From Verrucomicrobiota bacterium (GTDB lineage Bacteria > Verrucomicrobiota > Lentisphaeria > JABSQK01 > JAJFLO01), in NCBI GenBank assembly GCA_021772635.1, contig JAJFLP010000075.1:750-64749 (forward strand): a stretch of DNA of 64,000 nt. Direction: 5' to 3'. A program made the position numbers and the translations under genes. Of this stretch, positions 1 through 38,942 are shown one piece after another. Position 1 is the first letter of the stretch. The number at the start of each line of letters is the position of its first letter. A model generated the notes under the pieces. The model had not been told where the DNA came from. It saw nothing but the letters and a program-made list of their open reading frames with translations, and did not search any database.

Positions 1-230
1 TCTTCCAGTTCCAGCCGATCAAGGCTCCGAAAGGCCTTCCGCAAAAGCATATCGCTAACCCGAGCGAACCTGCTTGTCAAGGTTTCGAATGCATCGAACT
101 CTTCGTCGGTTAGATTCTCTAGATCCGTTATCACGGAACATTGTCCATAGGATCGATGCAACCATTTTTCACCTTCATCCAGTTTTGATAAAGAGTCGAC
201 TAATAAGGTAATGAATTCGCTCTGTGTCAT
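1..230 (-). CDS. HEPN-type (nucleotidyltransferase substrate-binding) toxin/partner, runs off the left edge
   Basis: Manual translation from ATG at 230: MTQSEFITLLVDSLSKLDEGEKWLHRSY...DAFETLTSRFARVSDMLLRKAFRSLDRLELE; its ATG overlaps the stop of the upstream MNT gene (ATGA coupling). Confidence 0.7.
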   Translation of the reverse strand, partial: MTQSEFITLLVDSLSKLDEGEKWLHRSYGQCSVITDLENLTDEEFDAFETLTSRFARVSDMLLRKAFRSLDRLELE

Positions 231-508
231 AATTTTATACCCTCCGACTCCGCAATTGATACTAACGCATTATTCTTATCACTAGGCAGGATGATGTCAA
301 TTTTTTGCGGCCCCAGTCGATCCATTAGCTTTAATTTGATAGATCTGCGTTCGTTTAGCCCAATTAACTTGGACTTAACGAGTAAATCGATATCGCCACC
401 ACGTTTATTGTCATCAACCCGGGAGCCGAAAAGAAAAACTTCTGCATCAGGATCAAAGCTGGAGATAGCTTCCGTAATAACGCCTTTTTGTTCCTGCGAT
501 AATCTCAT
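227..508 (-). CDS. Minimal nucleotidyltransferase (MNT) antitoxin
   Basis: 93 aa with FLFGSRV..GGDIDLLV (GS...DxD) motif. Confidence 0.85.
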   Translation of the reverse strand: MRLSQEQKGVITEAISSFDPDAEVFLFGSRVDDNKRGGDIDLLVKSKLIGLNERRSIKLKLMDRLGPQKIDIILPSDKNNALVSIAESEGIKL

Positions 509-553
509 GTTATTTGCCGGACAAGAATTAGTGTGAATAATAGAGTAGGTAGG

Positions 554-952
554 CTAGGGCGCTAATACAATTAATCCGGGAACATACTGAAAATGCTCGT
601 CATAAGACACGAGGCGGGCTCCTAACTCCAGAGTTGCCGCAGCAATCCAAATGTCATTTGTCGGGATTGGTGTGCCATTTGTCTTTAGCGAACGTACAAG
701 GATTCCATATCTCTCTGCGGTATCACGATCGACATCTACGATCCGAACACCTGTAAGTTTCAGAAATTCATTGAACTCAGCAACGTTTTTATCGAATTTA
801 GAGCCGAGTTGGAAACCTGCATAGAGTTCGCCAACCGCGACGGCCGGTAGAAACACTAAATCTGCCGTTTCAACCAGATTCGTAAGTTCACCTGGTTTAC
901 GAAATAATTTCGTATAACCGTTTGTATCAAGTACTAACCTCATTAGCGCCAA
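554..952 (-). CDS. vapC: PIN-domain VapC toxin
   Basis: LVLDTN, VGELY, PIPTNDIWIAA, LVSYDEHF acidic PIN motifs. Confidence 0.9.
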   Translation of the reverse strand: MALMRLVLDTNGYTKLFRKPGELTNLVETADLVFLPAVAVGELYAGFQLGSKFDKNVAEFNEFLKLTGVRIVDVDRDTAERYGILVRSLKTNGTPIPTNDIWIAAATLELGARLVSYDEHFQYVPGLIVLAP

Positions 953-1215
953 ATTTCCTCATCGATTACTTCGAATATTGCCATATTTCGTTCGAATTCC
1001 TTCTCATCGCTCCGGCTCCAGCGTCCTGCTAAAGAACTGAGATCTCGTTTAATACTTCCGGTTTCCTCAAGACCAAGCCCTTTCTCAAGTACTTTTATAA
1101 CAGTCTTATTAAGACTTTGCTGATTCTCGCCAGCCAATTTCCGCAGTCCATTCTCCACCGGAGCGGGGATCTTTCTTAATGTTAGTTGATTCATTTTATG
1201 CCTCCAATTTGACAT
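943..1215 (-). CDS. Ribbon-helix-helix antitoxin (FitA/VapB-like); likely start MNQLTLR
   Basis: QLTLRKIP..L..LA.....SLN pattern; overlaps vapC start. Confidence 0.75.
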   Translation of the reverse strand: MSNWRHKMNQLTLRKIPAPVENGLRKLAGENQQSLNKTVIKVLEKGLGLEETGSIKRDLSSLAGRWSRSDEKEFERNMAIFEVIDEEIWR

Positions 1216-1494: not shown

Positions 1495-1779
1495 TAAAAA
1501 ATATTGTTTCCACCGCGGCGGATTTCGCTAGGCTCAACACAGATCTTAGGTGATCAGTAAAAGTTGTCTCTCTCCGCACCAGCGGAGTCTCGGTCATCCG
1601 GACCGCATTCTCGGAGTCCGCTTATGCGGAGAGTCCGTCCATACGGACCAAAAATTGTACTGCTTGCAGTATAAATTAGCAAGGGAATGTGATATGGCGG
1701 ATGGGGAGCGGGGAAGGCGTGACAGGATGGAAAATAGGACAATCGTATAAACAAGAAGCAGGTACAAATTAAATGCAGT

Positions 1780-4086: not shown

Positions 4087-5325
4087 TTAGATCAACGCAT
4101 AAACACTCTCTTCCCCAGTTTTCACATCTATCAGCTTAATATTATCCAGTGATTCCTGTAACAACCCCGGAACATCCAGCAGTGCTTCCTCGTCGATAAT
4201 TCGTTTAAGTTTAGCACCGGTCGACGGGGACTTCGGAGCAAAGACGGTGCAGCTATCAGGACAGTTCTCCTCCGACACATATAATGTGTTTATACTTTTT
4301 GCTATCCGAATGGTCTCGAGTTTGTCCATACCGACCAGGGGGCGTAATATCAGCATATCGGTTGCCTTCCCGATGGTATCCATGTTTCTAATGGTCTGAC
4401 TCGCGACCTGACCGACGGCATCGCCGCTCACCAAGGCCTGCGCCCCCAGCGAATGCGCGACAGCCTCTGCGATTCGGATCATCATTCTACGGTAAAGGAT
4501 TGTCCGGAACTTCTCCGTACAATTGTCGCGAACTGCTTTTTGGACCGGGACCAAATTGCAGGCTAAGAACTTCCCAGGCCGCTGATATTGATTTAGTATC
4601 TGAATGATCCGCCCGACTTTTGAAATCGACTCGGCATTGGTATACGGATAACTGTGGAAGGTGAGAAAATTCAGCGGGCACCCCCGCTTCATAGTCAGAT
4701 AACAGGCAACCGGGGAGTCAATGCCGCCGGAAAGCAACGCCAGAGCCGGGCCGTTACAGCCGCTTGGAAGCCCACCGGGGCCCGGGGTGTGGTCATAAAA
4801 TATAAAACTCCAGTCGTCTCGCACTTCGACGCCTACAGTTAAGTCAGCATGATTCAAATCGACGGTCATATTTTGGTATTTTGCAAGGAGCTGTTCCGCG
4901 AAATGGATCTCTAGTGCATTGGAAGTAAGCGGGAAGTTCTTATCGCTACGGCGTGCGCGCATGCGATAGCGAATGGTGTCGCCGTCGCGGCAGGCGCTAT
5001 TAAAACGCTCGTACACATCCGGGAAGGTCGCCAGCACGCATTTCTCTATCTCCGGCAGGGTGGAATCAACGATGATCCCCGGCGAAAACGACGCGAGTCC
5101 AAAAACTTTCGGAAGCCTCGCCTGGATGATCGATAATTCATCCTGGGTTAAGACCTTAAAATTCGAAATATGTAGTACAACGCGCCCCCGTTCCTGAATT
5201 ATTTTTATCGAACCGAGTTCCTTTAGTGCATGTCTTATCCCTTCTATAAACAAGGCTTCGAAATATCGGCGATTACCGCCTTTCAACGCGATTTCGTTGT
5301 ACCGGCACATTACTGAGTTAAACAT
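4087..5325 (-). CDS. thiI: tRNA 4-thiouridine synthase ThiI (THUMP + PP-loop, no rhodanese domain)
   Basis: RYNEIALKGGNR, THUMP region, LLSGGIDSPVA, GQVASQT. Confidence 0.92.
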   Translation of the reverse strand: MFNSVMCRYNEIALKGGNRRYFEALFIEGIRHALKELGSIKIIQERGRVVLHISNFKVLTQDELSIIQARLPKVFGLASFSPGIIVDSTLPEIEKCVLATFPDVYERFNSACRDGDTIRYRMRARRSDKNFPLTSNALEIHFAEQLLAKYQNMTVDLNHADLTVGVEVRDDWSFIFYDHTPGPGGLPSGCNGPALALLSGGIDSPVACYLTMKRGCPLNFLTFHSYPYTNAESISKVGRIIQILNQYQRPGKFLACNLVPVQKAVRDNCTEKFRTILYRRMMIRIAEAVAHSLGAQALVSGDAVGQVASQTIRNMDTIGKATDMLILRPLVGMDKLETIRIAKSINTLYVSEENCPDSCTVFAPKSPSTGAKLKRIIDEEALLDVPGLLQESLDNIKLIDVKTGEESVYALI

Positions 5326-5353
5326 GGTTTTATGTCCGAGTTAAGTGATTTAT

Positions 5354-5571
5354 GTTGCGTGTTGCGTGTTGCGTGATTCGTATTACGTGTTGCGTGATTC
5401 GTATTGCGTGGTACGTGTTGCGTTTGGAATATTACGTATTTACTGATGAGCACAGCACTGTGGTAAGATGGATATGATCAGAGAATTTCTATTTTCCCTA
5501 CATTCAATATTTTCCTCGCAACACGTAACACGCATCACGTAACACGGAATACGCATCACGCAACACGTTTC
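5354..5571. repeat. Inverted pair of degenerate 7-mer tandem arrays (GTTGCGT-like / ACGCAAC-like), empty
   Basis: ~12 in-phase units at 5354-5437 and ~8 complementary units at 5516-5571; 78-bp spacer. Confidence 0.85.
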
Positions 5572-6202
5572 AATCCTTATGTATCATTGGGACGAACCTA
5601 ACAGGTAAGGTACTGGTCTCGATGATCTTACCATTAGTTTTGTGCAATAAGAGTAGTCGCTGGTCAGCAGTCCCTACCGGGACGACGATCCGCCCTCCAT
5701 CAGCTAATTGATCGATCAACTGCCGCGGTACTGACTCGGGTGCGCATGTGACAATGATCCCCTGATACGGACCCTCTTCAGACCAGCCGGCATACCCGTC
5801 ACCGGTCTTTATGTACACGTTGCTATAGTTAAGCTTTTCTAACACGTTGGCGGCATGATCAGCGAGTTGAGGGACAACTTCCACCGAGTACACATCGCGG
5901 CAAATGCACGCGAGAATTGCGGTTTGATAACCTGATCCCGTCCCAATCTCAAGTACCGTGTCGCTGGGTTCCAGTTTTAAGAGCTCAGTCATATATGCAA
6001 CAATAAACGGCTGCGAAATCGTCTGTCCAAACCCTATTTGAGTCGGGTGATCGCCGTAAACGGCAGCGTCCGATTCGGTTCCTCTTGGCATAAAAAAATG
6101 CCGGGGAACCGTTTCCATTGCCGCTAGAATAGCGGTGTTCTTGACACCGTATTCCCGCACCTGACGCACCATCCTGAGGCGCCTCTCGGTAAAATCAGCC
6201 AT
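5570..6202 (-). CDS. pcm: Protein-L-isoaspartate O-methyltransferase
   Basis: VPRHFF, GQTISQPFIVAYM, VLEIGTGSGYQTA; probable start MADFTERR at 6202 (ORF extension to 6418 runs through a repeat). Confidence 0.93.
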   Translation of the reverse strand: MADFTERRLRMVRQVREYGVKNTAILAAMETVPRHFFMPRGTESDAAVYGDHPTQIGFGQTISQPFIVAYMTELLKLEPSDTVLEIGTGSGYQTAILACICRDVYSVEVVPQLADHAANVLEKLNYSNVYIKTGDGYAGWSEEGPYQGIIVTCAPESVPRQLIDQLADGGRIVVPVGTADQRLLLLHKTNGKIIETSTLPVRFVPMIHKD

Positions 6203-6239
6203 TTTTGTCATTGCTCCGATAATAAATAAGCCTCCTCTG

Positions 6240-6378
6240 AAACTTCGTGGATTTTCGATTGATGATTTTAGATTCCAGATTTTGTTCTGTCGGAAATTGA
6301 CCAAAAAACTATGGATGAACCCGTTTCGTATTGTAAAATGTGGGTTAAAAAGGAAACCCACTGGTGGACTCCCTTGAA
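6240..6378 (+). repeat. Dispersed ~140-bp element, family B copy 1
   Basis: Core 6263-6378 matches the reverse complement of 13481-13597 with 4 mismatches by eye; ends in CCCAC-TG-GTGG. Confidence 0.9.
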
Positions 6379-6419
6379 CGACGGCGATCATGTTATCATA
6401 AGAAGATATAAGATGCAAT

Positions 6420-6511
6420 TATACTAACTCCAGTCAGGTTTTCGACAAGTTCTCTAAAATCTTTGCCTACGGTCACAAGAGATCGTCGAAAATTCGACTG
6501 CTTGCAGTCTA
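6420..6511 (+). mobile_element. 92-bp MITE-like element, family A (diverged)
   Basis: tatact...caggttttcga...gaaaattcGACTGCTTGCAGTCta; same length as the copies at 19713 and 38943. Confidence 0.55.
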
Positions 6512-6652
6512 GTTAACACTTCAACCGAAAGTATATTAGTCCCGCAAAACGCTCGACGGTTTCGATTCAGATTTCAACAGCCTATTGGTCACCCCATCGC
6601 ATCATGTTCAAGGTTTATACCAACAATCACGGAGTAGCGTAGAATTATCGGA

Positions 6653-7408
6653 ATGAATGAGAATCCTATTGTATTAATTGTCGACAATAGTGCGGAAGTT
6701 CGCGGAACGATGCGGGAGCTGCTTGTCGATCAGAATCTGGAGATCTACGAAGCCGCGGATGGCAAAGGCGCGCTAGTTAAAATTGAGAAGATTAACCCCG
6801 ATCTCGTGTGTCTGGATGCGGAGCTCCCGACTCTCGACGGGGAAGCTGCGCTCCGGAAAATCCGGGAGAAATATGATCCAGCTGAGCTGCCGGTAATTAT
6901 GATTGCCGGCGACAAGGGCGAGATTACCCTGAAGAAGTTTAGTATTCTCGGTTGCCAGGGGTATATAGTTAAACCGTTTGATGCTCAGAAAGTTATCCTG
7001 GAAATAAACACAATTCTGAACAGACCATTGCCTTCAGGTCGGTCACGGGTTCATCCGGAATCACTGCGACTGGCAAATGATTTACTGGGGCGTCTCGGTA
7101 ACGTTTTCAGGGATAGATTCTTAGCGATTGTCGCAAATCTTTTGACCATACGCTACGCCGCTTTAGATACAGCAATTACACCGACCGAGGCTGCGATAAG
7201 CGAAGAGGTCGTTCGAAAACTTGAGCATTACATCCGAGTGCAGGATTGCCGGGAATATCTAATCCACAAGATTAGCCGCATCCCGGACGCCGATCACCAA
7301 ACCTTCCTAGACGAATACTATAAATTAGCCTGCGACGTCGCTTCGCGAATCTATAACGACAAAGACGCGTTCAAGGAATTTATCGAAGCGTATATACTTA
7401 AGAAGTGA
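6653..7408 (+). CDS. Response regulator: CheY-like receiver plus unrecognised C-terminal domain
   Basis: VLIVDN, DLVCLDAELP (phospho-Asp), YIVKPF. Confidence 0.8.
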   Translation: MNENPIVLIVDNSAEVRGTMRELLVDQNLEIYEAADGKGALVKIEKINPDLVCLDAELPTLDGEAALRKIREKYDPAELPVIMIAGDKGEITLKKFSILGCQGYIVKPFDAQKVILEINTILNRPLPSGRSRVHPESLRLANDLLGRLGNVFRDRFLAIVANLLTIRYAALDTAITPTEAAISEEVVRKLEHYIRVQDCREYLIHKISRIPDADHQTFLDEYYKLACDVASRIYNDKDAFKEFIEAYILKK

Positions 7409-7413
7409 GGAGT

Positions 7414-7573
7414 GTAGCGTGAAGAGTGTTGCGTAGAAGATAACGATGGGGAACAGGACACACGACATGAAAAGGAACACCTGCAGGTAAGTGTCAATCT
7501 ATTAAATTCAGTTGGCGAATCACGTAACACAGACCACGCAACACGAACCACGCAACACGAACCACGTAACACG
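7414..7573. repeat. Second inverted pair of 7-mer arrays, empty
   Basis: 3 units at 7414-7434 (gtagcgt gaagagt gttgcgt) and ~8 units at 7515-7573 (acgtaac/acgcaac/acgaacc); 80-bp spacer. Confidence 0.7.
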
Positions 7574-7830
7574 TCGAGAATTGATGCATGATGTAGGCTG
7601 GGGTTATCAGATTCATGAAGAGTAGAGAAAAAACTACGAGATAAACATTGACGATTTCGATTTCGATGGCGATTCCGACGTCATCTGAGGCAAGTTGAGG
7701 TTACGAGTACGAAGATAGAATACTAAACACGATACAGGCATCGACGGTAACGATTTAGACAACGACCTTTGCCAAGAGATTACGAGGACGGGTACGATTA
7801 AGCGTACTAAAATAGGAAACGAGACACTGA

Positions 7831-9762
7831 ATGAAATCCTTTTATATAACGACACCGATATACTACGTAAACGATAAGCCGCATATCGGGCATGCGTATA
7901 CGACTATCCTGGCAGACGTTCTCGCGCGCTACCATCGATTGCTTGATGTCCCTACGTTTTTTCTAACGGGTACAGACGAGCACGGACAGAAGGTTGCGGA
8001 AGCAGCCAAAGCGAAAGGGATTGAACCGATTGAGCAGTGCGAGACGACAGTCGTCCGGTTTAGGGAATTGTGGGAAAAGCTGGAGATAACGAATGACGAT
8101 TTTATCCGAACAACGGAGGATCGGCATAAACGCGTGGTGCAGGAAATTCTGCAGCGGCTCTATGATGACGGAGAAATCTATAAGGCGAACTACGAAGGAT
8201 CGTATTGCACGCCGTGCGAACGATTCTATACGGATAAGGATCTAGTCGAGGGACGCTGTCCGGAGTGTAATCGCGATGTAGACACTATCATTGAGCCGAA
8301 TTATTTCTTCCGAATGGGCAAAGAGCAGGAATGGCTCATCGAGTACATAGATAATCACCCGGAGTTTATTCAACCGGCGCATCGTCGAAACGAGACCCTG
8401 GGGTTCCTGCGAAAACCGCTCGGTGACCTCTGCATCTCGCGACCTAAATCCCGATTATCGTGGGGCATAGAACTGCCGTTTGATAAAGATTACGTGTGTT
8501 ATGTCTGGTTCGATGCGTTGATTAATTATATCGGTGTGCCCGGTTACGGCAGTGACGATAGCAGGTTTTCAAAGTTTTGGCCGGCTACGTATCATTTGAT
8601 CGGCAAAGATATACTCACCACACACACGGTTTATTGGCCGATCATGTTAAAGGCGATTGGGATTGACCTTCCGCAAACGATTTTCGCGCACGGCTGGTGG
8701 CTGGTGGGTAAGGATAAAATGGGGAAATCGCTCGGGAATGTCGTCGATCCTATGAAGATGTGCGACGATTACGGAATCGACGCGTTTCGATACTTTTTAC
8801 TCGCAGAAATGACGCCGGGTAATGATGCCAGTTTTACGGATAAAGCATTTATCGACCGCTACAATACAGACCTGGCCGATAACCTTGGGAACATGTTGAA
8901 TCGGGCGGTGAAACTTATCCATCGATATTTCGACGGGCGAATTCCAGAAGCCGGTCCCGAAGAAGATGTAGATGCGCAGCTCAAATCCGTGACATTCGCC
9001 GCGGTTGAACAAATGACGGACGCGCTTGGGTCGATGAAACTGGACCGCGGATTGGACGCAGCGATGGGCGTTGTAAAGGAGTGTAATCGCTACTTTGAGC
9101 AAACGGCCCCATGGATCCTCGCAAAGGAGAAGAATACAGAGCGACTGGGGACAGTCCTTTATACAGCGGCGGAGTCGTTACGCATCGTGTCTGGCCTGTT
9201 ATTTCCAATCATGCCCACGAAAATGGCGGCAATGCGCGAAGTACTGGGATTAGGCGAAGACAAGGCGACACCAAAACTCGCGGATCTAAGTCGGTGGGCA
9301 GTACTCGAGTCTGGAACTAAGATCCAGGATCTGCACTCGTTATTTCCACGAATTGAGACACAGAAAAACGAAAGTAATCCGACGAAAAAGAATAAGGATA
9401 AACATAAAATGAATGATGGGAAAGATGCGCCCGACTTGGGAGTTATCGATATCAGTGATGTAGGGAAGGTTAAGCTAAAGACCGCAAAGATCATCGTGGC
9501 TGAGAAAATCGAAGGCGCCGATCGGATCTTGAGGCTTGAAATAATGGTCGGGTCCGAGCAAAGACAAATCATCGCCGGGATCGCGCAGTACTATTCTCCA
9601 GAAGAGCTGATCGGGAAAACGATCGTGGTGGTAACCAATCTAAAGCCAGCTACGATTCGCGGTGTTGAGTCGAACGGCATGCTCCTGGCCGCTAAAGATA
9701 AGGACGGATTGCATCTTATCACCGCCGACGGCAACTGTGAAAGCGGTGCGGAAGTAGGGTGA
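7831..9762 (+). CDS. metG: Methionine--tRNA ligase with C-terminal tRNA-binding domain
   Basis: ITTPIYYVNDKPHIGHAY, Zn knuckle, KMGKSLGN, C-terminal NLKPATIRGVESNGMLL. Confidence 0.97.
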   Translation: MKSFYITTPIYYVNDKPHIGHAYTTILADVLARYHRLLDVPTFFLTGTDEHGQKVAEAAKAKGIEPIEQCETTVVRFRELWEKLEITNDDFIRTTEDRHKRVVQEILQRLYDDGEIYKANYEGSYCTPCERFYTDKDLVEGRCPECNRDVDTIIEPNYFFRMGKEQEWLIEYIDNHPEFIQPAHRRNETLGFLRKPLGDLCISRPKSRLSWGIELPFDKDYVCYVWFDALINYIGVPGYGSDDSRFSKFWPATYHLIGKDILTTHTVYWPIMLKAIGIDLPQTIFAHGWWLVGKDKMGKSLGNVVDPMKMCDDYGIDAFRYFLLAEMTPGNDASFTDKAFIDRYNTDLADNLGNMLNRAVKLIHRYFDGRIPEAGPEEDVDAQLKSVTFAAVEQMTDALGSMKLDRGLDAAMGVVKECNRYFEQTAPWILAKEKNTERLGTVLYTAAESLRIVSGLLFPIMPTKMAAMREVLGLGEDKATPKLADLSRWAVLESGTKIQDLHSLFPRIETQKNESNPTKKNKDKHKMNDGKDAPDLGVIDISDVGKVKLKTAKIIVAEKIEGADRILRLEIMVGSEQRQIIAGIAQYYSPEELIGKTIVVVTNLKPATIRGVESNGMLLAAKDKDGLHLITADGNCESGAEVG

Positions 9763-9980
9763 TTTTGTATTGCCTGTTACGGGTTGCGTATTACGTGAGC
9801 GGGTGCTGTCCCGCCTTACGCGGAAGTCTTGAGTTATCCGGACCGCTTAGGCGCAAAGGTCGAATCTTGGGTGTTAATGTGGCATGAGAGTCCCGCTAAC
9901 GAATCAGAGCAGCAATCCGCCGACCTCTTTTTTCGGCCTCCTGCTAATATATAACGAAACTTTGCAGCGACGAAGCGAAG

Positions 9981-10065
9981 GTAGGAGGCAGCTCCTGCTG
10001 GCGATGTTTCTTATTTTGGTACTGCTACGAAAAATATATTATCGCGAGCAGGAGCTCCCTCCTAC
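9981..10065. repeat. GTAG-type REP doublet (REPIN-like)
   Basis: gtaggaggcagctcctgctggcgat versus reverse complement of 10041-10065 gtaggagggagctcctgctcgcgat (2 mismatches in 25). Confidence 0.8.
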
Positions 10066-10195
10066 ATTGTCAACAGCCTCTAAATCGTTTAAATTTCGAG
10101 GGATATGCATAACCGGGACGGTCATGGCAAATTGTCCCTGTCCGCGTTCCAGTTTCCTCGTATTCTCGACAACTTTACTGTATCGAAATATATTA

Positions 10196-10210
10196 GTTCC
10201 AAAATGGAAC
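10196..10210. promoter_or_regulatory. Palindromic TA operator
   Basis: GTTCCA-AAA-TGGAAC, 16 bp upstream of the antitoxin start. Confidence 0.55.
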
Positions 10211-10226
10211 CATATCGGAGTTTCCC

Positions 10227-10469
10227 ATGCCTAGTATAACCGTAAAAAATATACCTGATAAAGTATATGCAGATCTAAAGGAATCCGCAGCAGCCAATCA
10301 TCGGAGTATTAATAGCCAAATAATTGTGTGCTTAGAGCAAGCGTTTTGCTGCCGTAAAGTTGATGTCGAACGCGTAATACGCGACGCACGGGAAATTCGA
10401 GAGCACACGAGGCGCTGCGCAATTTCCGATGAGGAAATTAATGAAGCGAAGAACTACGGACGACCATGA
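10227..10469 (+). CDS. FitA/Arc-like RHH antitoxin
   Basis: MPSITVKNIPD..Y..LK..AAANHRSIN. Confidence 0.85.
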   Translation: MPSITVKNIPDKVYADLKESAAANHRSINSQIIVCLEQAFCCRKVDVERVIRDAREIREHTRRCAISDEEINEAKNYGRP

Positions 10470-10873
10470 TCGTCGTTGATACCAACGTAATCGTATATTT
10501 CTACTTAGAAAGCGACATGTCGATCCATGCTGAGTCTGCATACCGAAAGGATCCGAATTGGAGCGCACCAGCGCTTTGGCGCAGTGAGTTTAGAAACGTT
10601 CTCTCTATTTGTTTACGAAATCGTCGAATGCCGCGGGCTGCTGCTCAGACAATTGTTGATAGAGCGGAGACGCTGATGCAGAACCATGACTTCCAAATCC
10701 CGTCGGCGAAAGTCTTAAGTTTAGTTGCTAACAGCAAATGCTCTGCATACGATTGTGAGTTTGTGGCGTTGGCCCGGGATTTAAGGGTCCCGCTGGTGAC
10801 AGTTGATAAATTAATCCTTCGGGAGTTTTCAAAAGTAGCAATTAATTTAGTGGATTTCGTCAACGATAATTAA
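10466..10873 (+). CDS. vapC: PIN-domain VapC toxin
   Basis: MIVVDTNV, SEFRNVL, SAYDCEFVALA, LVTVD; 4-bp overlap with the antitoxin. Confidence 0.9.
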   Translation: MIVVDTNVIVYFYLESDMSIHAESAYRKDPNWSAPALWRSEFRNVLSICLRNRRMPRAAAQTIVDRAETLMQNHDFQIPSAKVLSLVANSKCSAYDCEFVALARDLRVPLVTVDKLILREFSKVAINLVDFVNDN

Positions 10874-11039
10874 GAGAAAGATTGGCGTTGGTTATTCGTT
10901 ATTTGTCGCTTAATAACTCCGTACGAGCGCGAGAGTCTCGGTTATCAATACGGCTTATGCGGGATAACACGGACCACGAATCACGCAATACGTAACAGGC
11001 TTCACCAAGTCCGCCTTCACTCACGAAATAGGTACAGCT

Positions 11040-11876
11040 ATGCAAAAATACGGCATAATTGGTTGGCCGGTAGAGCATTCTTTGTCTCCGAAGATGCAAC
11101 AAGCTGCATTTGATGAACTTCGCATCGAAGCGACATACGACCTATTGCCGGTCGAGCCTTCAAATCTCGAAAATAAGGTCGAAGAGCTAAAGACGGCAGG
11201 GTACTCTGGATGGAATGTTACAGTCCCGCATAAGAGCGCTATTCTCCCGTTTCTTGATGTTATCGATCCGGCGGCCGCAGCTGGTGAGAGCGTTAATACG
11301 GTCGTAAACAGGGGAGGGGAGTTACACGGATTTTCGACGGATGGCTATGGCCTGGAGATGGCGGTAAAGGAAGCGTTTAATCTGGAAATCGAGGGAAATA
11401 GATTCTTATTCTGGGGAACAGGCGGAGCGGCACAGGCAGCCACGACCCACTTTGCTTTGCGGGATGCAGCAGCCATCACTCTGGTCAATCGCACCCATAA
11501 CAAAGCTGTATCCCTGAAGATGAGATTAGAGCAGCTCTCGAGTGGATGTGAGATTAGCGCCCTGCAGCGATCAGAATCGGAGAGATTGAAAGAATGCCTC
11601 ACCTCAGTGGACGTTGTGATTCAGTGCACGTCGATTGGATTGCGCCCCGATGATTCCATTTCAATGCCTCTAGACCTCCTGCCTCGGCACACGAAGATCG
11701 TCGATATGATTTATAACGAAACTGAATTATTGCGGCAGGCGAAAGCGTTTGGTCACGACGCCGTCAATGGTAGTCGTATGCTCCTTCATCAGGGAGCGAA
11801 AGCATTCCGCCTATGGACGGAAAAAGATGCGCCTGTCGAGGTTATGCAGAATGCGCTGAAGGCTGTCTCGAGCTAG
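11040..11876 (+). CDS. aroE: Shikimate dehydrogenase
   Basis: GWPVEHSLSP, NVTVPHK, VNT, STDGYG, GTGGAA, MLLHQGA. Confidence 0.95.
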   Translation: MQKYGIIGWPVEHSLSPKMQQAAFDELRIEATYDLLPVEPSNLENKVEELKTAGYSGWNVTVPHKSAILPFLDVIDPAAAAGESVNTVVNRGGELHGFSTDGYGLEMAVKEAFNLEIEGNRFLFWGTGGAAQAATTHFALRDAAAITLVNRTHNKAVSLKMRLEQLSSGCEISALQRSESERLKECLTSVDVVIQCTSIGLRPDDSISMPLDLLPRHTKIVDMIYNETELLRQAKAFGHDAVNGSRMLLHQGAKAFRLWTEKDAPVEVMQNALKAVSS

Positions 11877-11886
11877 ACTTAGCGGT

Positions 11887-13314
11887 TTACTTCCTACCAG
11901 GCTTCTTCGACGTACTGACCTTAGCGTTGCTCGCGTTTTTCTTAGTTTTTTCTTTTCGCAATTGCTCAGCACAGAACTCTTTGTAGTCGTCGATTTCGCG
12001 AACGGCAGGGTGAACGTCATAAGAGGCGCATTCAGAGGTGTCTGTCAATATCGCGCCGCTATCGAGTAGTTCGCTGGCGAAATTACGTGCAGCGATTACA
12101 CCGTCAGGGCTTACATCTTGATTCGCTAAAAACTCGCCACGCTTCGTTTGATCGATCCGAAAGATTAGTGGATAAAAGACTTCGTGCGGAATTAAAAGCT
12201 TTTCGTAGTACGCGGAAAGACGTTTCATAGCAACGTCAGCGCTGCTCCTATCGATCTTTCGCTTACCTGAGATTCGCGCCGCACGCTGTGCGTAGTTCAC
12301 CAGCGACATTAAATCACGTGGATTTCCGCCGGACATCGTAGCAAGGTCCTGCAGTACCGACGTTGATTCAAATGTCTTCTTAACGTCCGCACGTTTTCCG
12401 ATGAGTTCTAAGAGTCCTTTCACTCCCGCCTTTCCCTCCTTGCCTGTCGAATCACGCAAATTCGCCAGTGGCAGCGTAAAGGTATGTTCAAAATGATTGC
12501 TTATGTGCAACGGCGGAACGTTGAGGGCCATTGGCGCCGTCGCAACGTGATGAACTCTAAGGGACTTGAGAATATCCGCGCTGTCGAAGAAAATACGGCG
12601 GGCGGCGGCATGAGACATATGATCAAGGTTATCCTGCAGAATCACGAGGTCCGGCTTCCGGTCGATCCGCGTGAGGGTCGCTCGGGCATCGTCGAGAAGC
12701 AGGTTCACGTGGTATACAAACTCTTCGGTATAACTGTGAAGTCGCTCCCGCATATTTTGTCGATGCGTTGAACTTGCAGCCATTTTGGATTTAATTCGAT
12801 TGAGTATCTGAATCGTCGTCCAGTAAAACCCATACTCTGCCTGAAGGTCCGTCCCGGATTCAGACCTGATTTCTTCCTTAACAACTTCGACGTCGTCGAA
12901 ACTCCGTCGTGAAATCCAATCGGTAAATGCGATCACAACATTCGAATCTAAAGGCCAGCGTTCAATAGAGTATTGGCGGATCAGATTCTCGACGAGCCAA
13001 ACGAGAAGATCAAGAATATCACAGTCACGGAGAACGTGATTTGAGATGGGGAAATACAAAGGTGTGAACCGATCGCCGAGCTCGTGGCCTAGGCGTCGTA
13101 ACTCTGTTGTTTTCCCTGATCCGCGATAGCCGCATAAGACGATCTTTGCGAAGCGGCCAGCCGCAGCGTCGCTATCCCGTATCTGGAGGCGAAGCTGTTG
13201 TAACTCATCGGAGCCGCGAGCAGCGGTCAGGTCATGGTATTTTTCATCGTCCGGTGCGAGAGGGGCGCGGTCGAAGCAGGAAGAGATCTCGCTCAATTGT
13301 TTGGCTACTTTCAT
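11887..13314 (-). CDS. P-loop ATPase of unknown function
   Basis: Walker A GYRGSGKT, Walker B-like VILQDNLD, SGGNPRDL. Confidence 0.75.
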   Translation of the reverse strand: MKVAKQLSEISSCFDRAPLAPDDEKYHDLTAARGSDELQQLRLQIRDSDAAAGRFAKIVLCGYRGSGKTTELRRLGHELGDRFTPLYFPISNHVLRDCDILDLLVWLVENLIRQYSIERWPLDSNVVIAFTDWISRRSFDDVEVVKEEIRSESGTDLQAEYGFYWTTIQILNRIKSKMAASSTHRQNMRERLHSYTEEFVYHVNLLLDDARATLTRIDRKPDLVILQDNLDHMSHAAARRIFFDSADILKSLRVHHVATAPMALNVPPLHISNHFEHTFTLPLANLRDSTGKEGKAGVKGLLELIGKRADVKKTFESTSVLQDLATMSGGNPRDLMSLVNYAQRAARISGKRKIDRSSADVAMKRLSAYYEKLLIPHEVFYPLIFRIDQTKRGEFLANQDVSPDGVIAARNFASELLDSGAILTDTSECASYDVHPAVREIDDYKEFCAEQLRKEKTKKNASNAKVSTSKKPGRK

Positions 13315-13480
13315 ATGAATCCGGAAGGCGACTAGGGTTTGATTGTAACGAAAGTTTTCGAGGGCGATTCGCCGAGCCCGTTCTGGGTCTCTGTTATTCC
13401 AAAAGGAAACAGGTTTTCGGCGAAGTTAATGTGGGAGGCGCTGTCTCCCACATTAAGAAGAGCCTCAAACTCGTTGAAGA

Positions 13481-13621
13481 TTCAAGGGTGCCCACCAGTG
13501 GGGTTCCTTTTTAACCCACATTTTACAATACGAAACGGGTTCATCCATAGTTTTTGGGTCAATTTCCGACAGAACAAAATCTGGAATCTAAAATCATAAA
13601 TCTAAAATTCGTCCAAGTTTC
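13481..13621 (-). repeat. Family B copy 2 (inverted relative to 6240-6378)
   Basis: Near-identity to the reverse complement of 6240-6378. Confidence 0.9.
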
Positions 13622-17429: not shown

Positions 17430-17462
17430 TACATCTCATAATCGATGGACTGCTGGCCGATC

Positions 17463-17940
17463 CTATGCGTTCGGACCGACCGTGTTGAGTTCGTCCCGCA
17501 CCGCTTTGCCGATTGAGTCGCGGGTATATGGCTTCGAAAGATAGGTCGCGGCGCCAAGTGCCTGAGCTTCTTTCACTCGATCGCTTTCCGAGTATCCGCT
17601 GGCAATAACGCATTTCTGCCCCGGATTTTTTTACGACTTCCCGAACAGTTCAAAATCCCTGTCCCCGTGTCTAAAATTCCGAGTTTGCAGTATTCTCCCG
17701 GTCCAATAACGTCGTATCCCTTTATTCGGATTCTTAACTACTACCCGCTCTGTTATGATTGTCAGTGCGCCACTGGTCTCCATCGCCTCAATCGCGTTTA
17801 TGACAAGGTTTATTATCGCCTGAGATAGATGTGTTGGAGAGCCCTCGATCGCCCCAAGTTCGGCGTCGAGTTCCAGCTTGAGTTCGATTTTTGGAAATCG
17901 TGATCGTAATTCCTTGTAGCTGCGAGAATTTTCAGAAAAC
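17463..17940 (-). pseudogene. Frameshifted, internally deleted hybrid histidine kinase (HATPase_c + receiver)
   Basis: Manual translation across three frames: HLSQAIINLVINAIEAM (N box); GEYCKLGILDTGTGI (G1 box); NPGQKCVIASGYSESDRVKEAQALGAATYLSKPY (receiver C-terminal half). Confidence 0.75.
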
Positions 17941-17996
17941 GAGCAGTTTGCATTTTCACCTGCTACCCTATGGGAATTGATCCGTGTACTCTTTTT

Positions 17997-18150
17997 TCGA
18001 AATCGAAATCGAAATCGAAATCGGGATCGTTCCTCCTTGTTCCTTGGCTATAAGCAACTGACTCGCACGAAAACTAAACAACGATTCGTCGTCGCCAAGG
18101 CTATGTCGCAACAGGTTTTCGATAGCGATTTCGATTTCGACTCCGATTGG
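17997..18150. repeat. Inverted pair of 6-mer arrays (ATCGAA / TTCGAT)
   Basis: cgaaatcgaaatcgaaatcgaaatcggg and ttcgatagcgatttcgatttcgactccgat. Confidence 0.75.
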
Positions 18151-18210
18151 TCGTCCCACGGGCTCTTCTTCGATGGGATGGTTGTGATCCGCTTCTCAAC
18201 TTCGTGCAGC

Positions 18211-19712: not shown

Positions 19713-19804
19713 TATACCGAACGTCTTCAGGTTTTCGAATTATCGTCCGGCATCCTATACGTGGATATTTCAAGTCGTCCAAGAATTGTACCGCTTGCGG
19801 TATA
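19713..19804 (+). mobile_element. 92-bp MITE-like element, family A
   Basis: TATACC...GGTATA ends with internal TACCGC-TT-GCGGTA hairpin; homologous to 38943-39034 (minus). Confidence 0.75.
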
Positions 19805-19891
19805 GTATACCCTTGAATAATTGGATAATATACTGATCGCCTTGGAGTTTTCGACCCGTAGTTCTGCTGTCAAGCAGAACTGCGAGGTTTA

Positions 19892-19992
19892 TATGCCGAA
19901 CGTCTTCATCCCGCATACGGGACGAAATATTGTTCGATATCCCTTGGGTAATGGATTCAAAGTCGGCCGAAAATTGTACTGCTTGCAGTATA
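19892..19992 (+). mobile_element. Family A element, second nearby copy
   Basis: gccgaacgtcttc...aagtcggccgaaaattgTACTGCTTGCAGTAta. Confidence 0.6.
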
Positions 19993-20080
19993 AATATCGT
20001 TCGGAATCTCTTCCTTAATAAATAAAAGTCAATATAAGTTTGACTGCCTGCAGTCTAACATAATAATTCGTACTTTTCTA

Positions 20081-24760: not shown

Positions 24761-27058
24761 TCACAGCCAATTGCCGATCAGTAAATAGGGGCCCCAATAC
24801 GCCGGATGCCGGAAACGTCGCTGAGAAAGAACGCTTTTTTGTGCGCTTTGAAGGGCTTTCGCTTTTGAAATACCTGGATCCTTTTGAAGTTGGCGATAGA
24901 ACTCGGTTATTACCAATTTCGTCGCTTCGTCGCTGACGTACCATAATGTCGCGATAGCGCCCCGCGCTCCGGATTTCACCGCTATCCCCGCGAGTCCAAG
25001 CGCAGACCTCTCATCACCCACAGCCGTCCGGCAAGCGCTGAGTGTTAACAACTCAATTGGGTTATCACGAAATTGCCCGAGTTTTATCAAAGACTCAAGC
25101 TCATCCATTGTTATTTTCTTGTCATGTGCCAGCAGATAAGTTTTTTTGGGGTTGCGGTCAAATTCCGCGTGCGTGGCGAAGTGAACGATCCCATAGGGGA
25201 TATTTCTTAGAGCGTTGTAAACGTTTGTTGCCGTAAAGTCTTCGTCCATCAGCAAATCGCCCGTGAGCACATCGTTGATCGATTTCAACTCCTCCGGAAC
25301 GCTCGGTAATGCCGCGTGCCCCTGTACACTTTTGGAAAGACCGCCCAGCAGAGTCTTTAAATTGTCGCGGTCAATCGGCTTCGGGTCAGTGAGTTTGAGA
25401 CCCGGCGTGGTGGCGATCGCAAACTTTTGGATGAGATAATTCTCGCCGTCATGTAAGGTTGGGAACGGGATCAATCTTAGAACACCATCGGGAATTATCA
25501 CCAAAGTATCTACGTTCTGCGCCTTTAGTTCTTCTTCGAGTGGCCCGATGATCCAGCTATAGAGCTTTTGAGCCGCGTACATGTAGCGTTTGGAAGAGCG
25601 TTTTTGCAGTTCTTTTCTAAACGCGAGAACTTCGGTTTTTACGGCATCAGCGTCGACGTCGACACTGAATCGAAGAATATTGTCTTGAGAAATAAGTAAT
25701 GTCACTAACTTATTTTTCAGGATTATGGGATAAACGATCGAGGCATCGACGTTTTGTTGATCCAACCGTATCTGCTGCGCCTGGAGTGCAGCAACACATT
25801 GATCTTGAAAATAGTTCTCGAGTTCCGCAGTTTTGAGTAGTTCTACGGTGTCCAACGCGCGCCGGAGAAAATGCTGTTCAGTGGTCTCCTGGTCAGCAAT
25901 AATAGACTGTCCGATATAAATACTCGCCAGTTCGTAGTACACAGGCTTCACCTTTCGCTCAAACGATTCAGGCAGGTGCCGAACACCTACCGTGAGTTCG
26001 TTGCGAATCGGGGTCAACGTGGCAATCGCGTTACTATACGCTGCGATCGCCTCATCCGTTCTTCCCGTGGCTCTAAGTAATCGCCCGGATTGCCAGTACC
26101 ATTGATACAGGATCTCCGGATTATCCCCCTGAGAAGCCGCAAATAACGCGATATTAGTCAGCTGAAACGCCTCATTATATCTTCCGTCGATCTCGTATAG
26201 GTGGGCCAGATATCCGTTTGCGTAGGATCTGAGGCGCGCGTTAGGAAGCTGCAACGCAATCCTATCTGCCGCACTGAACGAGCTCGCGGCCAATGATTTC
26301 AGCTTCCGCGTTTCCACGTCGCCGACCCCGCTCTTGTAAATTTCAAATGCCTGCAGGCCAACGGATAAGAGCAGTGACGCTTTCATATAGTTATTCGGGA
26401 CCGATTTCAGGAATTGAGCGGAATCGACCACCGCCGTCGTTGCCAGATCCAGGTCTCCGGCGTTCAAAGCTGCGATTGCAAGATTGAGGAGAACGGTCGC
26501 AATGAACTCCGAGTTATCCAGCTCTCGAGCGAGAGCGACAGATTCGCGGTAACACTCCATCGCCAACGGCCAGTCATCGACGACCATCGCAATATTACCT
26601 GAGTTATTCAGCGCAAGGGACAGAAGGTTTTCATCCCCAAAATTCCGCGCCTCGTTCAGAACGAAATTTCCGATTTTACTCCCTTCGTCATGCCGTCCCG
26701 TAGCAATAAAGAAATCGGCCAGTCTAACAAGCACCAGAAGGTAATGGCCGGCATCTGCTAAGCCCTCGCCAATGGTGCGCGCTTCATTCAAGGAGGAATA
26801 TGTTTTTTCGTGGTGTCCCAGATTCTGGTGTGCAGATGCTTTTAGTAGTAACCCGTCGCATTTCTTGTTGGGGTCGGATTCCAGCGGTAAATTTTTATCC
26901 AGAATTCTGATGGTCGCGGCAAAATTACCGGCGGTATCCAGTTCTTGAGCTTCGACCAGCCAATCTCCGTTTGCCTCCGCGACGACAGGTGTAGCTGTAG
27001 AAAACACCATCGAAGTAAGAAAGGCAGCCATCCATGGCCAAAAACATCTGGTAATCAT
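24761..27058 (-). CDS. TPR + CHAT (caspase-like) domain protein, probably exported
   Basis: TPR-like repeats; IIPDGVLRLIPF, VHFATHA (His) and LTLSACRTA (Cys), PAYWGPY; signal-like N-terminus MITRCFW. Confidence 0.9.
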   Translation of the reverse strand: MITRCFWPWMAAFLTSMVFSTATPVVAEANGDWLVEAQELDTAGNFAATIRILDKNLPLESDPNKKCDGLLLKASAHQNLGHHEKTYSSLNEARTIGEGLADAGHYLLVLVRLADFFIATGRHDEGSKIGNFVLNEARNFGDENLLSLALNNSGNIAMVVDDWPLAMECYRESVALARELDNSEFIATVLLNLAIAALNAGDLDLATTAVVDSAQFLKSVPNNYMKASLLLSVGLQAFEIYKSGVGDVETRKLKSLAASSFSAADRIALQLPNARLRSYANGYLAHLYEIDGRYNEAFQLTNIALFAASQGDNPEILYQWYWQSGRLLRATGRTDEAIAAYSNAIATLTPIRNELTVGVRHLPESFERKVKPVYYELASIYIGQSIIADQETTEQHFLRRALDTVELLKTAELENYFQDQCVAALQAQQIRLDQQNVDASIVYPIILKNKLVTLLISQDNILRFSVDVDADAVKTEVLAFRKELQKRSSKRYMYAAQKLYSWIIGPLEEELKAQNVDTLVIIPDGVLRLIPFPTLHDGENYLIQKFAIATTPGLKLTDPKPIDRDNLKTLLGGLSKSVQGHAALPSVPEELKSINDVLTGDLLMDEDFTATNVYNALRNIPYGIVHFATHAEFDRNPKKTYLLAHDKKITMDELESLIKLGQFRDNPIELLTLSACRTAVGDERSALGLAGIAVKSGARGAIATLWYVSDEATKLVITEFYRQLQKDPGISKAKALQSAQKSVLSQRRFRHPAYWGPYLLIGNWL

Positions 27059-30359: not shown

Positions 30360-30447
30360 ATTCGTAATCGTACTCGTAATCATAATCTTTCTAGTTTTTC
30401 GAGGTGAGATTTAGAAAGAGATTACGATTATGAGTACGAGCACGAAG
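30360..30447. repeat. Inverted pair of 6-mer arrays
   Basis: cgtaatcgtactcgtaatcataatctttcta / tagaaagagattacgattatgagtacgagcacg. Confidence 0.65.
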
Positions 30448-38930: not shown

Positions 38931-38942
38931 AAAGATCAAAGT

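What the first reader, a model, noticed from the sequence alone, without database searches (positions are those of the whole stretch)
5354..11000. Inverted heptamer-array pairs at gene 3' ends: two empty, one loaded with a TA module
Three pairs of degenerate 7-bp tandem arrays share one polarity (GTTGCGT-type left arm, ACGCAAC-type right arm). Each abuts an upstream stop codon: it overlaps the pcm stop, lies 6 bp after the response regulator stop, or lies 7 bp after the metG stop. Two pairs have nearly equal spacers (78 and 80 bp). The third encloses ~1.16 kb holding a REP doublet and vapBC, wedged between metG and aroE. This filled-versus-empty pattern suggests a repeat-bracketed cassette system that inserts just 3' of genes and exchanges cargo, with no recombinase in the window. 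Parallel 6-mer pairs occur at 17997-18150 and 30360-30447.
Basis: partly seen in the sequence, partly recalled or inferred. Interest (0 to 1): 0.7.

Follow-up and report, generated by a model that had tools for sequence, protein, structure and literature searches.

The report
Heptamer-repeat hairpins; one split by toxin-antitoxin
Three gene junctions carry long imperfect hairpins built from tandem 7-base repeats, a poorly understood but already described kind of intergenic repeat. One hairpin was split by an inserted toxin-antitoxin module, and nothing shows a dedicated cassette-exchange system.

Summary
Six arms of CGT-phased 7-nt arrays (unit CGT-G-[T/A/G]-T-N) lie at 5351-11000 and nowhere else in the 64 kb. 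They form three inverted pairs, all with the GT-type arm on the left and the AC-type arm on the right. Each pair starts 1-7 nt after a stop codon (pcm, response regulator, metG).

These are hairpin-forming heptanucleotide repeat arrays. The closest precedents are cyanobacterial STRR hairpins between hupS and hupL and the convergent GGGAATC pairs of Xanthomonas.

The same unit family is abundant in GC-rich metagenome contigs. The one contig I could place is Chloroflexi. There polarity is GT-left to AC-right in 49 pairs against 7, and the hairpins abut stop codons, often inside operons.

The two nearest relatives keep response regulator-metG-aroE synteny but have neither arrays nor vapBC. So vapBC is an insertion, and pair 3 is one former hairpin split by 1.17 kb.

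The insert is bounded by direct copies of a different, REP-like repeat. VapC homologues elsewhere have no flanking arrays. In the metagenome loci, arrays flank ordinary genes in every orientation combination.

One independent parallel exists: hicAB sits in a secA-trm112 array that is empty in an 88%-identical relative.

Verdict: an insertion-prone repeat hairpin, not a demonstrated cassette system.

The parts
5351..5427 (.). Pair 1, GT-type arm: 10 units (GTTGCGT, GATTCGT, ATTRCGT...), with a 21-nt super-period. It ends 27 nt before the thiI start codon (5325, minus strand).
5424..5516 (.). Pair 1 spacer, 93 nt, AT-rich. No similarity to the other spacers or to anything else in the window.
5512..5568 (.). 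Pair 1, AC-type arm: 7 units. It ends 1-2 nt from the pcm stop codon (5570-5572, minus strand).
   Evidence: RNA fold z = -7.5
4087..5325 (-). thiI (ThiI, THUMP), the gene downstream of pair 1.
5570..6202 (-). pcm (protein-L-isoaspartate O-methyltransferase). The likely start is the ATG at 6202; the listed ORF runs to 6418.
6653..7408 (+). Receiver-domain response regulator; stop at 7406-7408.
7405..7440 (.). Pair 2, decayed GT-type arm: period 14, only 2-3 recognisable units.
   Evidence: below threshold
7516..7574 (.). Pair 2, AC-type arm: 6-8 units with a 14-nt super-period. It lies 256 nt upstream of the metG start.
7831..9762 (+). metG (methionyl-tRNA synthetase).
9766..9800 (.). Pair 3, GT-type arm: 3-4 units. 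Outer stem GCCTGTTACG at 9772-9781.
9819..9853 (+). REP-like repeat, copy A. Same family as 1555-1660 and 63225-63300. Lies just inside the left arm.
   Evidence: 0 of 300-500 shuffles reach the score
9854..10226 (+). Non-coding part of the insert: a 28-nt inverted repeat (9978-10005 / 10041-10068), a sigma-70-like promoter (10166-10194) and a palindrome (10194-10212) ahead of vapB. ORF 9884-10234 has no Pfam hit.
10227..10469 (+). vapB antitoxin (FitA-like ribbon-helix-helix).
10466..10873 (+). vapC toxin (PIN domain); overlaps vapB by 4 nt.
10928..10961 (+). REP-like repeat, copy B, direct relative to copy A. Lies just inside the right arm.
10965..11000 (.). Pair 3, AC-type arm: 4-5 units. 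Outer stem CGTAACAGGC at 10991-11000, about 40 nt before the aroE start.
11040..11876 (+). aroE (shikimate dehydrogenase).
17997..18148 (.). Hexamer pair (TCGAAA)4.5 / (TTTCGA)5.3 with a 93-nt spacer, next to a frameshifted gene remnant. Same architecture, different unit.
30362..30447 (.). Hexamer pair (TCGTAA-type) between divergent genes. The right arm overlaps the ATG at 30430.

Best explanation
What it is: the three pairs are fast-evolving extragenic palindromes whose arms are degenerate heptanucleotide simple-sequence arrays (unit CGT-G-[T/A/G]-T-N).

How it most likely works: each pair is transcribed with its neighbours (pcm-thiI, response regulator-metG, metG-aroE). The GU-rich array begins 1-7 nt after the stop codon and pairs with the AC-rich array downstream to give a long bulged stem. 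This is the role proposed for cyanobacterial STRR hairpins and E. coli REP/BIME elements. Such a stem behind a stop codon would shield the upstream cistron from 3'-to-5' decay and partly uncouple it from the next cistron.

How it changes: arms grow and shrink in blocks of 1-3 units by slippage. They stay matched through inverted duplication or gene conversion, and they decay when not maintained, as in the pair 2 left arm.

Pair 3: it was an ordinary member with a spacer of about 70 nt. A 1.1-kb segment carrying vapBC with its own promoter entered that spacer, most likely by recombination at a REP-like repeat that now flanks the insert as direct copies. The heptamer arms were bystanders, at most making the site fragile.

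Shown: anatomy, non-randomness, placement, polarity, turnover among relatives, and that vapBC is an insertion.

Inferred: transcription of the arrays, an RNA-level effect, the slippage and gene-conversion dynamics, and the insertion route.
For: - Arrays are real and confined to 5351-11000.
- Pair 1 arms mirror each other unit by unit and fold at -86 to -93 kcal/mol.
- Super-periods of 21 and 14 nt match better than period 7.
- All three pairs start 1-7 nt after a stop codon in co-directional gene pairs.
- In 45 hairpins of the same unit family from metagenome loci, contexts are tandem 22, convergent 7, divergent 2. The hairpin starts 0-20 nt after the upstream stop. Polarity is 49:7.
- Turnover at the secA-trm112 junction: strains with an identical SecA protein differ by a 36-nt indel that removes one arm, and orthologues at 83-90% identity carry different arm lengths.
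- Relatives L202 and L203 have the same synteny without arrays or TA.
- The reconstructed empty pair 3 folds well, z = -5.3.
- Direct REP-like copies bound the insert. vapBC has its own promoter-like site.
- Heptamer-armed hairpins with other units occur in other PVC metagenome-assembled genomes. In L031 two copies carry an A-run before and a T-run after, like bidirectional terminators.
- Literature: 7-bp STRR arrays form hairpins between hupS and hupL and are proposed to raise transcript stability or couple translation (PMC2670836). Xanthomonas has 70-75 convergent heptamer pairs per genome (PMC4692102). REPs near stop codons affect ribosomes and mRNA (PMC12306157).
Against: - No expression data exist for these arrays.
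- None of the window's hairpins is followed by a U-tract.
- The sense-strand RNA is not more stable than the antisense. Antisense is the more stable in 17 of 24 cases, p = 0.04. So nothing singles out RNA over DNA as the active form.
- Many Chloroflexi hairpins end only 8-30 nt before the next start codon, which excludes full termination there.
- Pair 2 no longer folds convincingly.
- One hexamer pair sits in a divergent promoter region.
- The same unit in two phyla, together with the strong polarity, could mean sequence-specific recognition rather than structure alone.
- The function of the whole repeat class is unknown in the literature.
Confidence: 0.5

Rival explanations
1. Cassette or landing-pad system. 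The heptamer pairs are recombination sites. Small modules such as TA pairs are inserted between or inside the arms and can move between pairs, either through an unidentified hairpin- or repeat-directed recombinase or by homologous exchange between arrays.
For: - vapBC is absent from the syntenic site in relatives.
- Pair 3 arms are in register across the cargo.
- Independent parallel: hicAB sits inside the secA-trm112 array of L165, where L215 has an intact empty hairpin.
- Polarity is uniform.
- Both loaded pairs hold TA modules.
- REPs are known insertion targets for IS elements (PMC1525189).
Against: - The cargo is bounded by direct copies of a different repeat.
- In L165 the insertion lies within the AC arm, not the loop.
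- Closest VapBC homologues have no arrays.
- A second PIN module in the window has none.
- Arrays flank ordinary genes in all orientation combinations.
- No recombinase was found in the window.
- Only two loaded cases were found, and there is no baseline for insertion into array-free gaps.
Confidence: 0.13
2. DNA-level element. The arrays are phased binding sites for a sequence-specific DNA-binding protein (nucleoid-associated, a regulator or RHH-type), or they act as cruciform or non-B DNA that affects replication or recombination. Any RNA hairpin is incidental.
For: - There is no sense-strand advantage in RNA folding, so complementarity is symmetric as expected for DNA.
- 21 nt is two helical turns.
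- The same unit profile appears in a 48% GC genome and in 60-67% GC contigs.
- Polarity is strong.
- From my own knowledge, not tested here: RHH proteins such as omega of pSM19035 bind arrays of heptads.
Against: - There is no candidate protein.
- Units are highly degenerate, and arm lengths vary from 3 to 45 units.
- Arrays are missing from close relatives.
- Placement follows stop codons rather than promoters.
- The metagenome set was seeded with the window's own heptamers, so its similarity is partly built in.
Confidence: 0.15
3. Functionless by-product. The arrays are selfish or neutral products of slippage and template switching, tolerated only in gaps after stop codons, with no role for the cell.
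For: - Rapid gain, loss and decay.
- Absence from relatives without visible consequence.
- Heptanucleotide repeats are the commonest long simple-sequence repeats in many prokaryotes and were attributed to polymerase slippage (as cited in PMC4679880).
Against: - The 49:7 polarity and the near-absence from divergent gaps are not expected from neutral slippage alone.
- The last AC units next to the ribosome-binding site of trm112 persist across orthologues at 83-90% SecA identity.
- L031 copies share identical arms, which means dispersal of whole units.
Confidence: 0.2

Closest known systems
Cyanobacterial STRR heptanucleotide arrays that form hairpins, e.g. between hupS and hupL (PMC2670836; Mazel et al. 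1990 from my own knowledge)
   Same: Tandem 7-nt units in intergenic or intercistronic gaps. Opposed arrays can fold into a hairpin. Proposed roles are transcript stability, translational coupling and pausing. Function unproven.
   Different: The unit sequence differs (CGTGTTG-type against CCCCAGT and others). The host phyla differ (a PVC-like genome and Chloroflexi). The window's pairs have 75-93-nt spacers. Strict polarity and TA insertion are not reported for STRR.
Convergent GGGAATC heptamer repeat pairs of Xanthomonas (Rehm et al. 2015, PMC4692102)
   Same: Degenerate heptamer arrays of 2-26 units. There are 70-75 cases per genome of two arrays close together on opposite strands, noted as potential stem-loops or cruciforms. 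They are intergenic and transcribed.
   Different: Those units are G-tract repeats that form G-quadruplexes. The units here have no G runs. Enclosed cargo was not described there.
TAACTGA direct heptamer repeats of Beggiatoaceae, Cyanobacteria and Bacteroidetes (MacGregor 2015, PMC4679880)
   Same: One heptamer family shared by unrelated phyla. Arrays are intergenic and orientation-biased relative to genes. A post-transcriptional role is proposed.
   Different: Those are almost all direct repeats placed just upstream of start codons, with only one inverted case. Here the arrays are inverted pairs placed just after stop codons.
REP/BIME extragenic palindromes of enterobacteria and pseudomonads (PMC12306157, PMC1525189)
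   Same: Dispersed imperfect palindromes at gene 3' ends and inside operons. They affect mRNA decay and ribosomes near stop codons, and they are known hot spots for insertion of mobile DNA.
   Different: REPs are single 20-40-nt palindromes, not tandem arrays, and are linked to RAYT transposases. No such gene was seen here.
Integron gene cassettes with attC sites
   Same: Cargo, often TA modules, bracketed by imperfect inverted repeats whose 7-nt cores (GTTRRRY / RYYYAAC) resemble GTTGCGT / ACGCAAC.
   Different: No integrase was found. The cores are single sites, not arrays. The heptamer misses the consensus at one position. There is no complete attC after the cargo and no cassette array. vapBC has its own promoter.

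Membership tests
Heptanucleotide long simple-sequence repeat (STRR-type) arrays | Head-to-tail 7-nt units, at least 3 copies, degenerate | tested here: met
   TRF period 7 with 7-10 copies; in-phase CGT runs of 4-10 units.
Heptanucleotide long simple-sequence repeat (STRR-type) arrays | Intergenic, several loci with one unit family | tested here: met
   Six arms in three gaps. None lies inside a Pfam-supported gene. The genome-wide count could not be tested.
Heptanucleotide long simple-sequence repeat (STRR-type) arrays | Copy-number variation between close strains | tested here: inconclusive
   The only other copy of the window's locus is identical (L081). Variation is seen in the Chloroflexi secA-trm112 series, including a 36-nt arm indel between strains with an identical SecA protein.
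Convergent heptamer pairs (Xanthomonas type) | Two arrays of one unit on opposite strands, close together | tested here: met
   Arms are 75-93 nt apart in pairs 1 and 2. There are 49 such pairs in the metagenome loci.
Convergent heptamer pairs (Xanthomonas type) | G-tract units able to form G-quadruplexes | tested here: not met
   The units CGTGTTG, CGTGATT and the like contain no G run of 3 or more.
REP/BIME | Imperfect palindrome in extragenic space at 3' ends or within operons | tested here: met
REP/BIME | Single short (20-40 nt) palindromic unit | tested here: not met
   Arms are 25-77 nt long and are built of tandem units. The whole elements span 170-220 nt.
REP/BIME | Associated RAYT (IS200/IS605-like) transposase | tested here: inconclusive
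   No transposase or integrase domain in 40 window proteins scanned. The rest of the genome was not available.
MITE | Terminal inverted repeats plus target-site duplication | tested here: not met
   Inverted arms are present, but no duplicated flank is visible at any of the three pairs on reading the sequence.
Integron cassette / attC | IntI integrase, attC with GTTRRRY / RYYYAAC cores, cassette array | tested here: not met
   No integrase found. GTTGCGT departs from GTTRRRY at position 5. The cores are arrays, not single sites. No complete attC follows vapC.
Rho-independent terminator | Short GC-rich stem followed by a U-tract | tested here: not met
   The consensus scan finds no terminator formed by the two arms of any pair. 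The only hit there lies within the pair 1 left arm. No Rfam family matches at E of 1 or below.
Type II vapBC toxin-antitoxin (the cargo) | Small RHH antitoxin gene overlapping a PIN toxin gene, with its own promoter | tested here: met
   FitA-like RHH at 3.7e-12 and PIN at 5.4e-9, with a 4-nt overlap. A promoter-like site lies at 10166-10194. Homologous pairs occur in L206-L210.

The most novel reading that the evidence does not exclude
Heptamer-array hairpins are preferred landing pads for small mobile modules, TA pairs in particular, in at least two phyla. The arrays supply either a fragile hairpin or shared homology, so that a module bracketed by a GT-type and an AC-type array can be dropped into, or swapped between, any hairpin of the same family without a dedicated integrase.
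Probability: 0.12. Interest if true: 0.7.

Novelty: new member of a known kind. Interest (0 to 1): 0.4.

Why it matters
Heptanucleotide arrays are reported as the commonest long simple-sequence repeats in many prokaryotes, yet their function is unknown. Here one unit family, CGTGNTN, appears with a strict arm polarity and stop-codon placement in a PVC-like genome and in Chloroflexi. It turns over between near-identical strains, which gives a clean comparative handle on the class. The two filled-versus-empty cases suggest that such hairpins are soft spots where TA modules settle next to essential genes (metG, secA). That is worth a population-scale test. It does not yet amount to a new mobile-element mechanism.

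Tried and rejected
1. Rfam, at gathering thresholds on the whole window and at E of 1 or below on 5200-11200, gave only two tRNAs.
2. Orthologous junctions in 80 GTDB species genomes: MetG is at most 65% identical there, and there is no synteny except thiI or GlnRS on single loci, so no empty-site test was possible. It was solved through protein hits P0002 and P0004.
3. The idea that vapBC travels with heptamer arms was rejected. Homologues at 58-59% VapC identity in L206-L210 have no arrays.
4. A sense-strand G-U bias, as a signature of an RNA-level role, was not found. The trend runs the other way.
5. The idea that the AC array is a leader directly upstream of the ribosome-binding site holds at secA-trm112. 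Elsewhere solo arrays split 10 GT to 9 AC in sense orientation, and two virus-labelled contigs have a GT-type array before the binding site. I dropped it as a general rule.
6. Phage carriage: only 2 of 9 viral-contig pattern hits are real arrays.
7. Similarity between spacers, or between the cargo interior and the rest of the window, was not found beyond the REP-like copies.
8. Integron attC, MITE, intrinsic-terminator and G-quadruplex readings each fail a defining feature (see the membership test).
9. RHH heptad operators (WATCACW, recalled from memory): only a minority of units contain ATCAC. No test was possible.
10. Literature search for the unit sequence itself returned only unrelated sequence (primer-like) matches. 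No paper links heptameric repeats with Chloroflexi.


Full report
**1. The observation**

Reading 5000-11400 and running TRF shows period-7 arrays at these places:
- 5353-5423: 10 copies of a GTTGCGT-type unit.
- 5517-5568: 7 copies of an ACGCAAC-type unit.
- 7405-7440: period 14, weak.
- 7516-7574: 8 copies.

Exact CGT or ACG trinucleotides recurring every 7 nt form runs of 10, 7, 6 and 4 units. In the whole 64 kb, such runs occur only at these sites and at 10969-10992.

A degenerate-unit scan gives 20 windows scoring at least 26/28, against 0.02 in shuffles. All are in the named arms. The pair-3 left arm (9766-9800) appears at 25/28. The pair-2 left arm falls below that.

Pair 1 arms are 84-90% complementary over 39-51 nt. 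They mirror each other's order of variant units (GTTGCGT, GATKCGT, ATTMCGT, twice). The 21-nt and 14-nt super-periods match better than period 7.

Pair 3 arms are in register across 1177 nt and end in a perfect 10-bp outer stem: GCCTGTTACG at 9772-9781 and CGTAACAGGC at 10991-11000.

All three pairs read GT-type on the left and AC-type on the right. Because each is an inverted repeat, this holds on both strands, so the polarity is a real property.

Each pair begins 1-7 nt after the stop codon of pcm, the response regulator or metG.

- The spacers are 93 and 75 nt, not 78 and 80.
- The pair 1 right arm abuts the pcm stop rather than overlapping it.
- Pair 2 no longer folds better than shuffles (z = -1.85), whereas pair 1 does (z = -7.5).
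- The second hexamer pair lies between divergent genes.

**2. Surroundings**

Pfam identifies thiI, pcm, a receiver-only response regulator, metG, a FitA-like RHH antitoxin overlapping a PIN toxin, aroE and an AAA protein. No transposase or integrase domain was found in 40 window proteins. The two roughly 2250-aa ORFs were not scanned.

Rfam finds nothing but two tRNAs. No pair carries a U-tract.

vapB is preceded by a promoter-like site (10166-10194) and a palindrome, so the module looks self-contained.

**3. Whose genome, and what relatives show**

MetG is at most 65-69% identical to anything in the collections. The best hits are Lentisphaeria, Victivallales and Kiritimatiellia metagenome-assembled genomes.

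The two closest relatives could be fetched:
- L202 (69%) keeps pcm, response regulator, metG and aroE in order. The response regulator-metG gap is 20 nt and the metG-aroE gap is 137 nt.
- L203 (67%) has a 302-nt metG-aroE gap.

Neither has heptamer arrays or a TA module. So both the arrays and vapBC were added in the window's lineage. The only other copy of the locus (L081) is identical, and it breaks inside the pair 2 right arm.

**4. The same architecture elsewhere**

Other PVC genomes carry period-7 inverted pairs built from other units:
- L031 has four copies of (GAACGTC)n / (GACGTTC)n. Two of them share an identical 40-nt arm but differ by a 21-nt insertion in the spacer. Two are framed by an A-run and a T-run, like bidirectional terminators.
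- L013 has (CCCAACG)8 directly after the metG stop, with its partner 107 nt away and the opposite polarity.

Of these, 89 have CGT-phased arrays of at least 4 units, up to 45 units. Most are 55-70% GC.

The typical form is (CGTGTTG/CGTGGTG)n, an 8-30-nt loop, then (CACGCAA/CACGCAC)n. The unit profile equals the window's. This is partly built in, because the scan was seeded with the window's own heptamers.

One such contig, L165, is Chloroflexi by its SecA. The others were not placed taxonomically.

Polarity is GT-to-AC in 49 pairs against 7.

With a crude gene caller, 45 hairpins fall in these contexts: tandem 22, convergent 7, divergent 2. They start 0-20 nt after the upstream stop and often end only 8-30 nt before the next start.

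**5. The cassette idea**

For the idea:
- vapBC is an insertion (section 3).
- Removing the cargo and one flanking repeat copy restores a hairpin of -58.6 kcal/mol, z = -5.3, with a spacer of about 70 nt like pairs 1 and 2.
- In L165 a hicA-hicB pair (Pfam) lies between a GT array that follows the secA stop and an AC array that precedes trm112.
- SecA orthologues at 83-90% identity have secA-trm112 adjacent. L215 carries an intact empty hairpin there: (CGTGATT)3, 26 nt, (CACGNAN)7, then AGGAGG and ATG.

Against the idea:
- In L165 the insert sits inside the AC arm, which is duplicated around it, not in the loop.
- In the window, the insert is bounded by direct copies (9819-9853 and 10928-10961; 0 of 500 shuffles) of a different dispersed REP-like repeat, also present at 1555-1660 and 63225-63300. 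This points to recombination at that repeat.
- The closest VapBC homologues (58-59% VapC identity, including Anaerolineae) in L206-L210 have no such arrays.
- A second PIN module at 554-952 has none.
- In the metagenome loci, successive gaps carry arrays in all combinations: GT..AC about 10, AC..GT about 12, GT..GT about 12, AC..AC about 9.
- The genes between those arrays are ordinary: FlpD plus ferredoxin, ThiS, a CsoR-like repressor, SnoaL, a response regulator and a DNA-alkylation repair enzyme.

The defensible statement is that these hairpins are insertion-prone gaps. They are not shown to be recombination sites of a cassette system.

**6. How it most likely works**

The placement immediately behind stop codons, the rarity in divergent gaps, the operon-internal positions and the strong stems match what is proposed for two known classes:
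- 7-bp STRR hairpins between hupS and hupL, linked to transcript stability, translational coupling or pausing (PMC2670836).
- REP elements, which can stall ribosomes just upstream of stop codons, leading to mRNA cleavage (PMC12306157).

I therefore favour a transcribed, REP-like intercistronic hairpin that is resized by slippage (super-periods; arm indels between strains).

This is an inference, and several things weigh against it:
- Sense RNAs fold no better than antisense; antisense is more stable in 17 of 24 cases.
- There is no U-tract.
- Recurrence of the same unit in two phyla leaves room for a sequence-specific DNA- or RNA-binding factor.

A neutral by-product remains possible, but it explains the polarity and placement poorly.

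**7. Comparison and novelty**

Paired convergent heptamer arrays are documented in Xanthomonas, at 70-75 pairs per genome (PMC4692102). Heptamer arrays shared across phyla are documented for TAACTGA (PMC4679880). REPs are known insertion targets (PMC1525189).

The present elements fail the defining features of REP (a single short palindrome), MITE (target-site duplication), attC (integrase, single cores), intrinsic terminators (U-tract) and G-quadruplex repeats.

They are best filed as a new member (new unit family, new phyla) of the known but unexplained class of hairpin-forming heptanucleotide repeat arrays. No paper in the searchable library mentions this unit.

The recurring TA insertion is the one element that could turn out to be new. 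Two cases do not establish it.

Noticed in passing
window 1555-1660, 63225-63300, 9819-9853, 10928-10961: A dispersed REP-like family (about GCTGTCNCCGCNTAAGCGAGAGTCTCGGYCATCCGGACC). Two direct copies bound the vapBC insert. Another copy lies about 340 nt upstream of the second PIN module.
   Followed up: partly
window 1655-1685, 19785-19815, 19970-20000, 38940-38970, 56850-56875, 63285-63315; L202 12015-12045: A palindromic family AAAATTGTACTGCTTGCAGTATAAAT, often next to CAGGTTTTCGAC...GTCGAAAA. It also fills the metG-aroE gap of the 69% relative, so the family is shared between the two lineages.
   Followed up: no
window 6250-6372, 13490-13612, 62940-63065 (also 15715, 51245, 56875): A roughly 125-nt repeated element. 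One end is the palindrome AACCCACTGGTGGG and the other is a degenerate GATTTTN heptamer array. Copies occur in both orientations upstream of genes.
   Followed up: no
window 227-1215 (minus strand): A second toxin-antitoxin-like cluster: a nucleotidyltransferase (227-508), a PIN toxin (554-952) and a small overlapping ORF (943-1215). It has no heptamer arrays.
   Followed up: partly
window 17430-18160: About 530 nt of broken reading frames on the minus strand, which look like a gene remnant. This is followed by the hexamer pair (TCGAAA)/(TTTCGA) with a 93-nt spacer, the same spacer length as pair 1.
   Followed up: no
window 24761-30275 and 30430-46009: A CHAT protease, a ShlB/FhaC-type transporter and an AAA_21 ATPase lie on the minus strand. 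On the plus strand a PfaD-like gene is followed by two roughly 2250-aa ORFs, which look like a polyunsaturated fatty acid or polyketide synthase cluster (not scanned).
   Followed up: no
L081 (= window 7537-13519): An independent short-read assembly of the same locus is identical. It breaks exactly inside the pair 2 right arm and inside the CCCACTGGTGGG element, so these repeats fragment assemblies.
   Followed up: yes
L031 1436-1551, 4399-4501, 5651-5775, 19123-19155: A Lentisphaerae metagenome-assembled genome carries four copies of a heptamer-armed hairpin with a different unit. Two copies have identical arms and different spacers. Two have an A-run before and a T-run after, like bidirectional terminators.
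   Followed up: partly
L211/L212 versus L213/L214, secA-trm112 gap: Chloroflexi strains with an identical SecA protein differ by a 36-nt indel that removes one arm of an (AAACGTA)/(TTTACGT) pair.
   Followed up: partly
L206 851-916: A period-9 inverted array pair (AACGGATTG / ATCCGTTCA) and a separate AGTTGCA heptamer array (11078-11112) on a contig that carries a VapBC homologue. Inverted array pairs are therefore not limited to 7-nt units.
   Followed up: no
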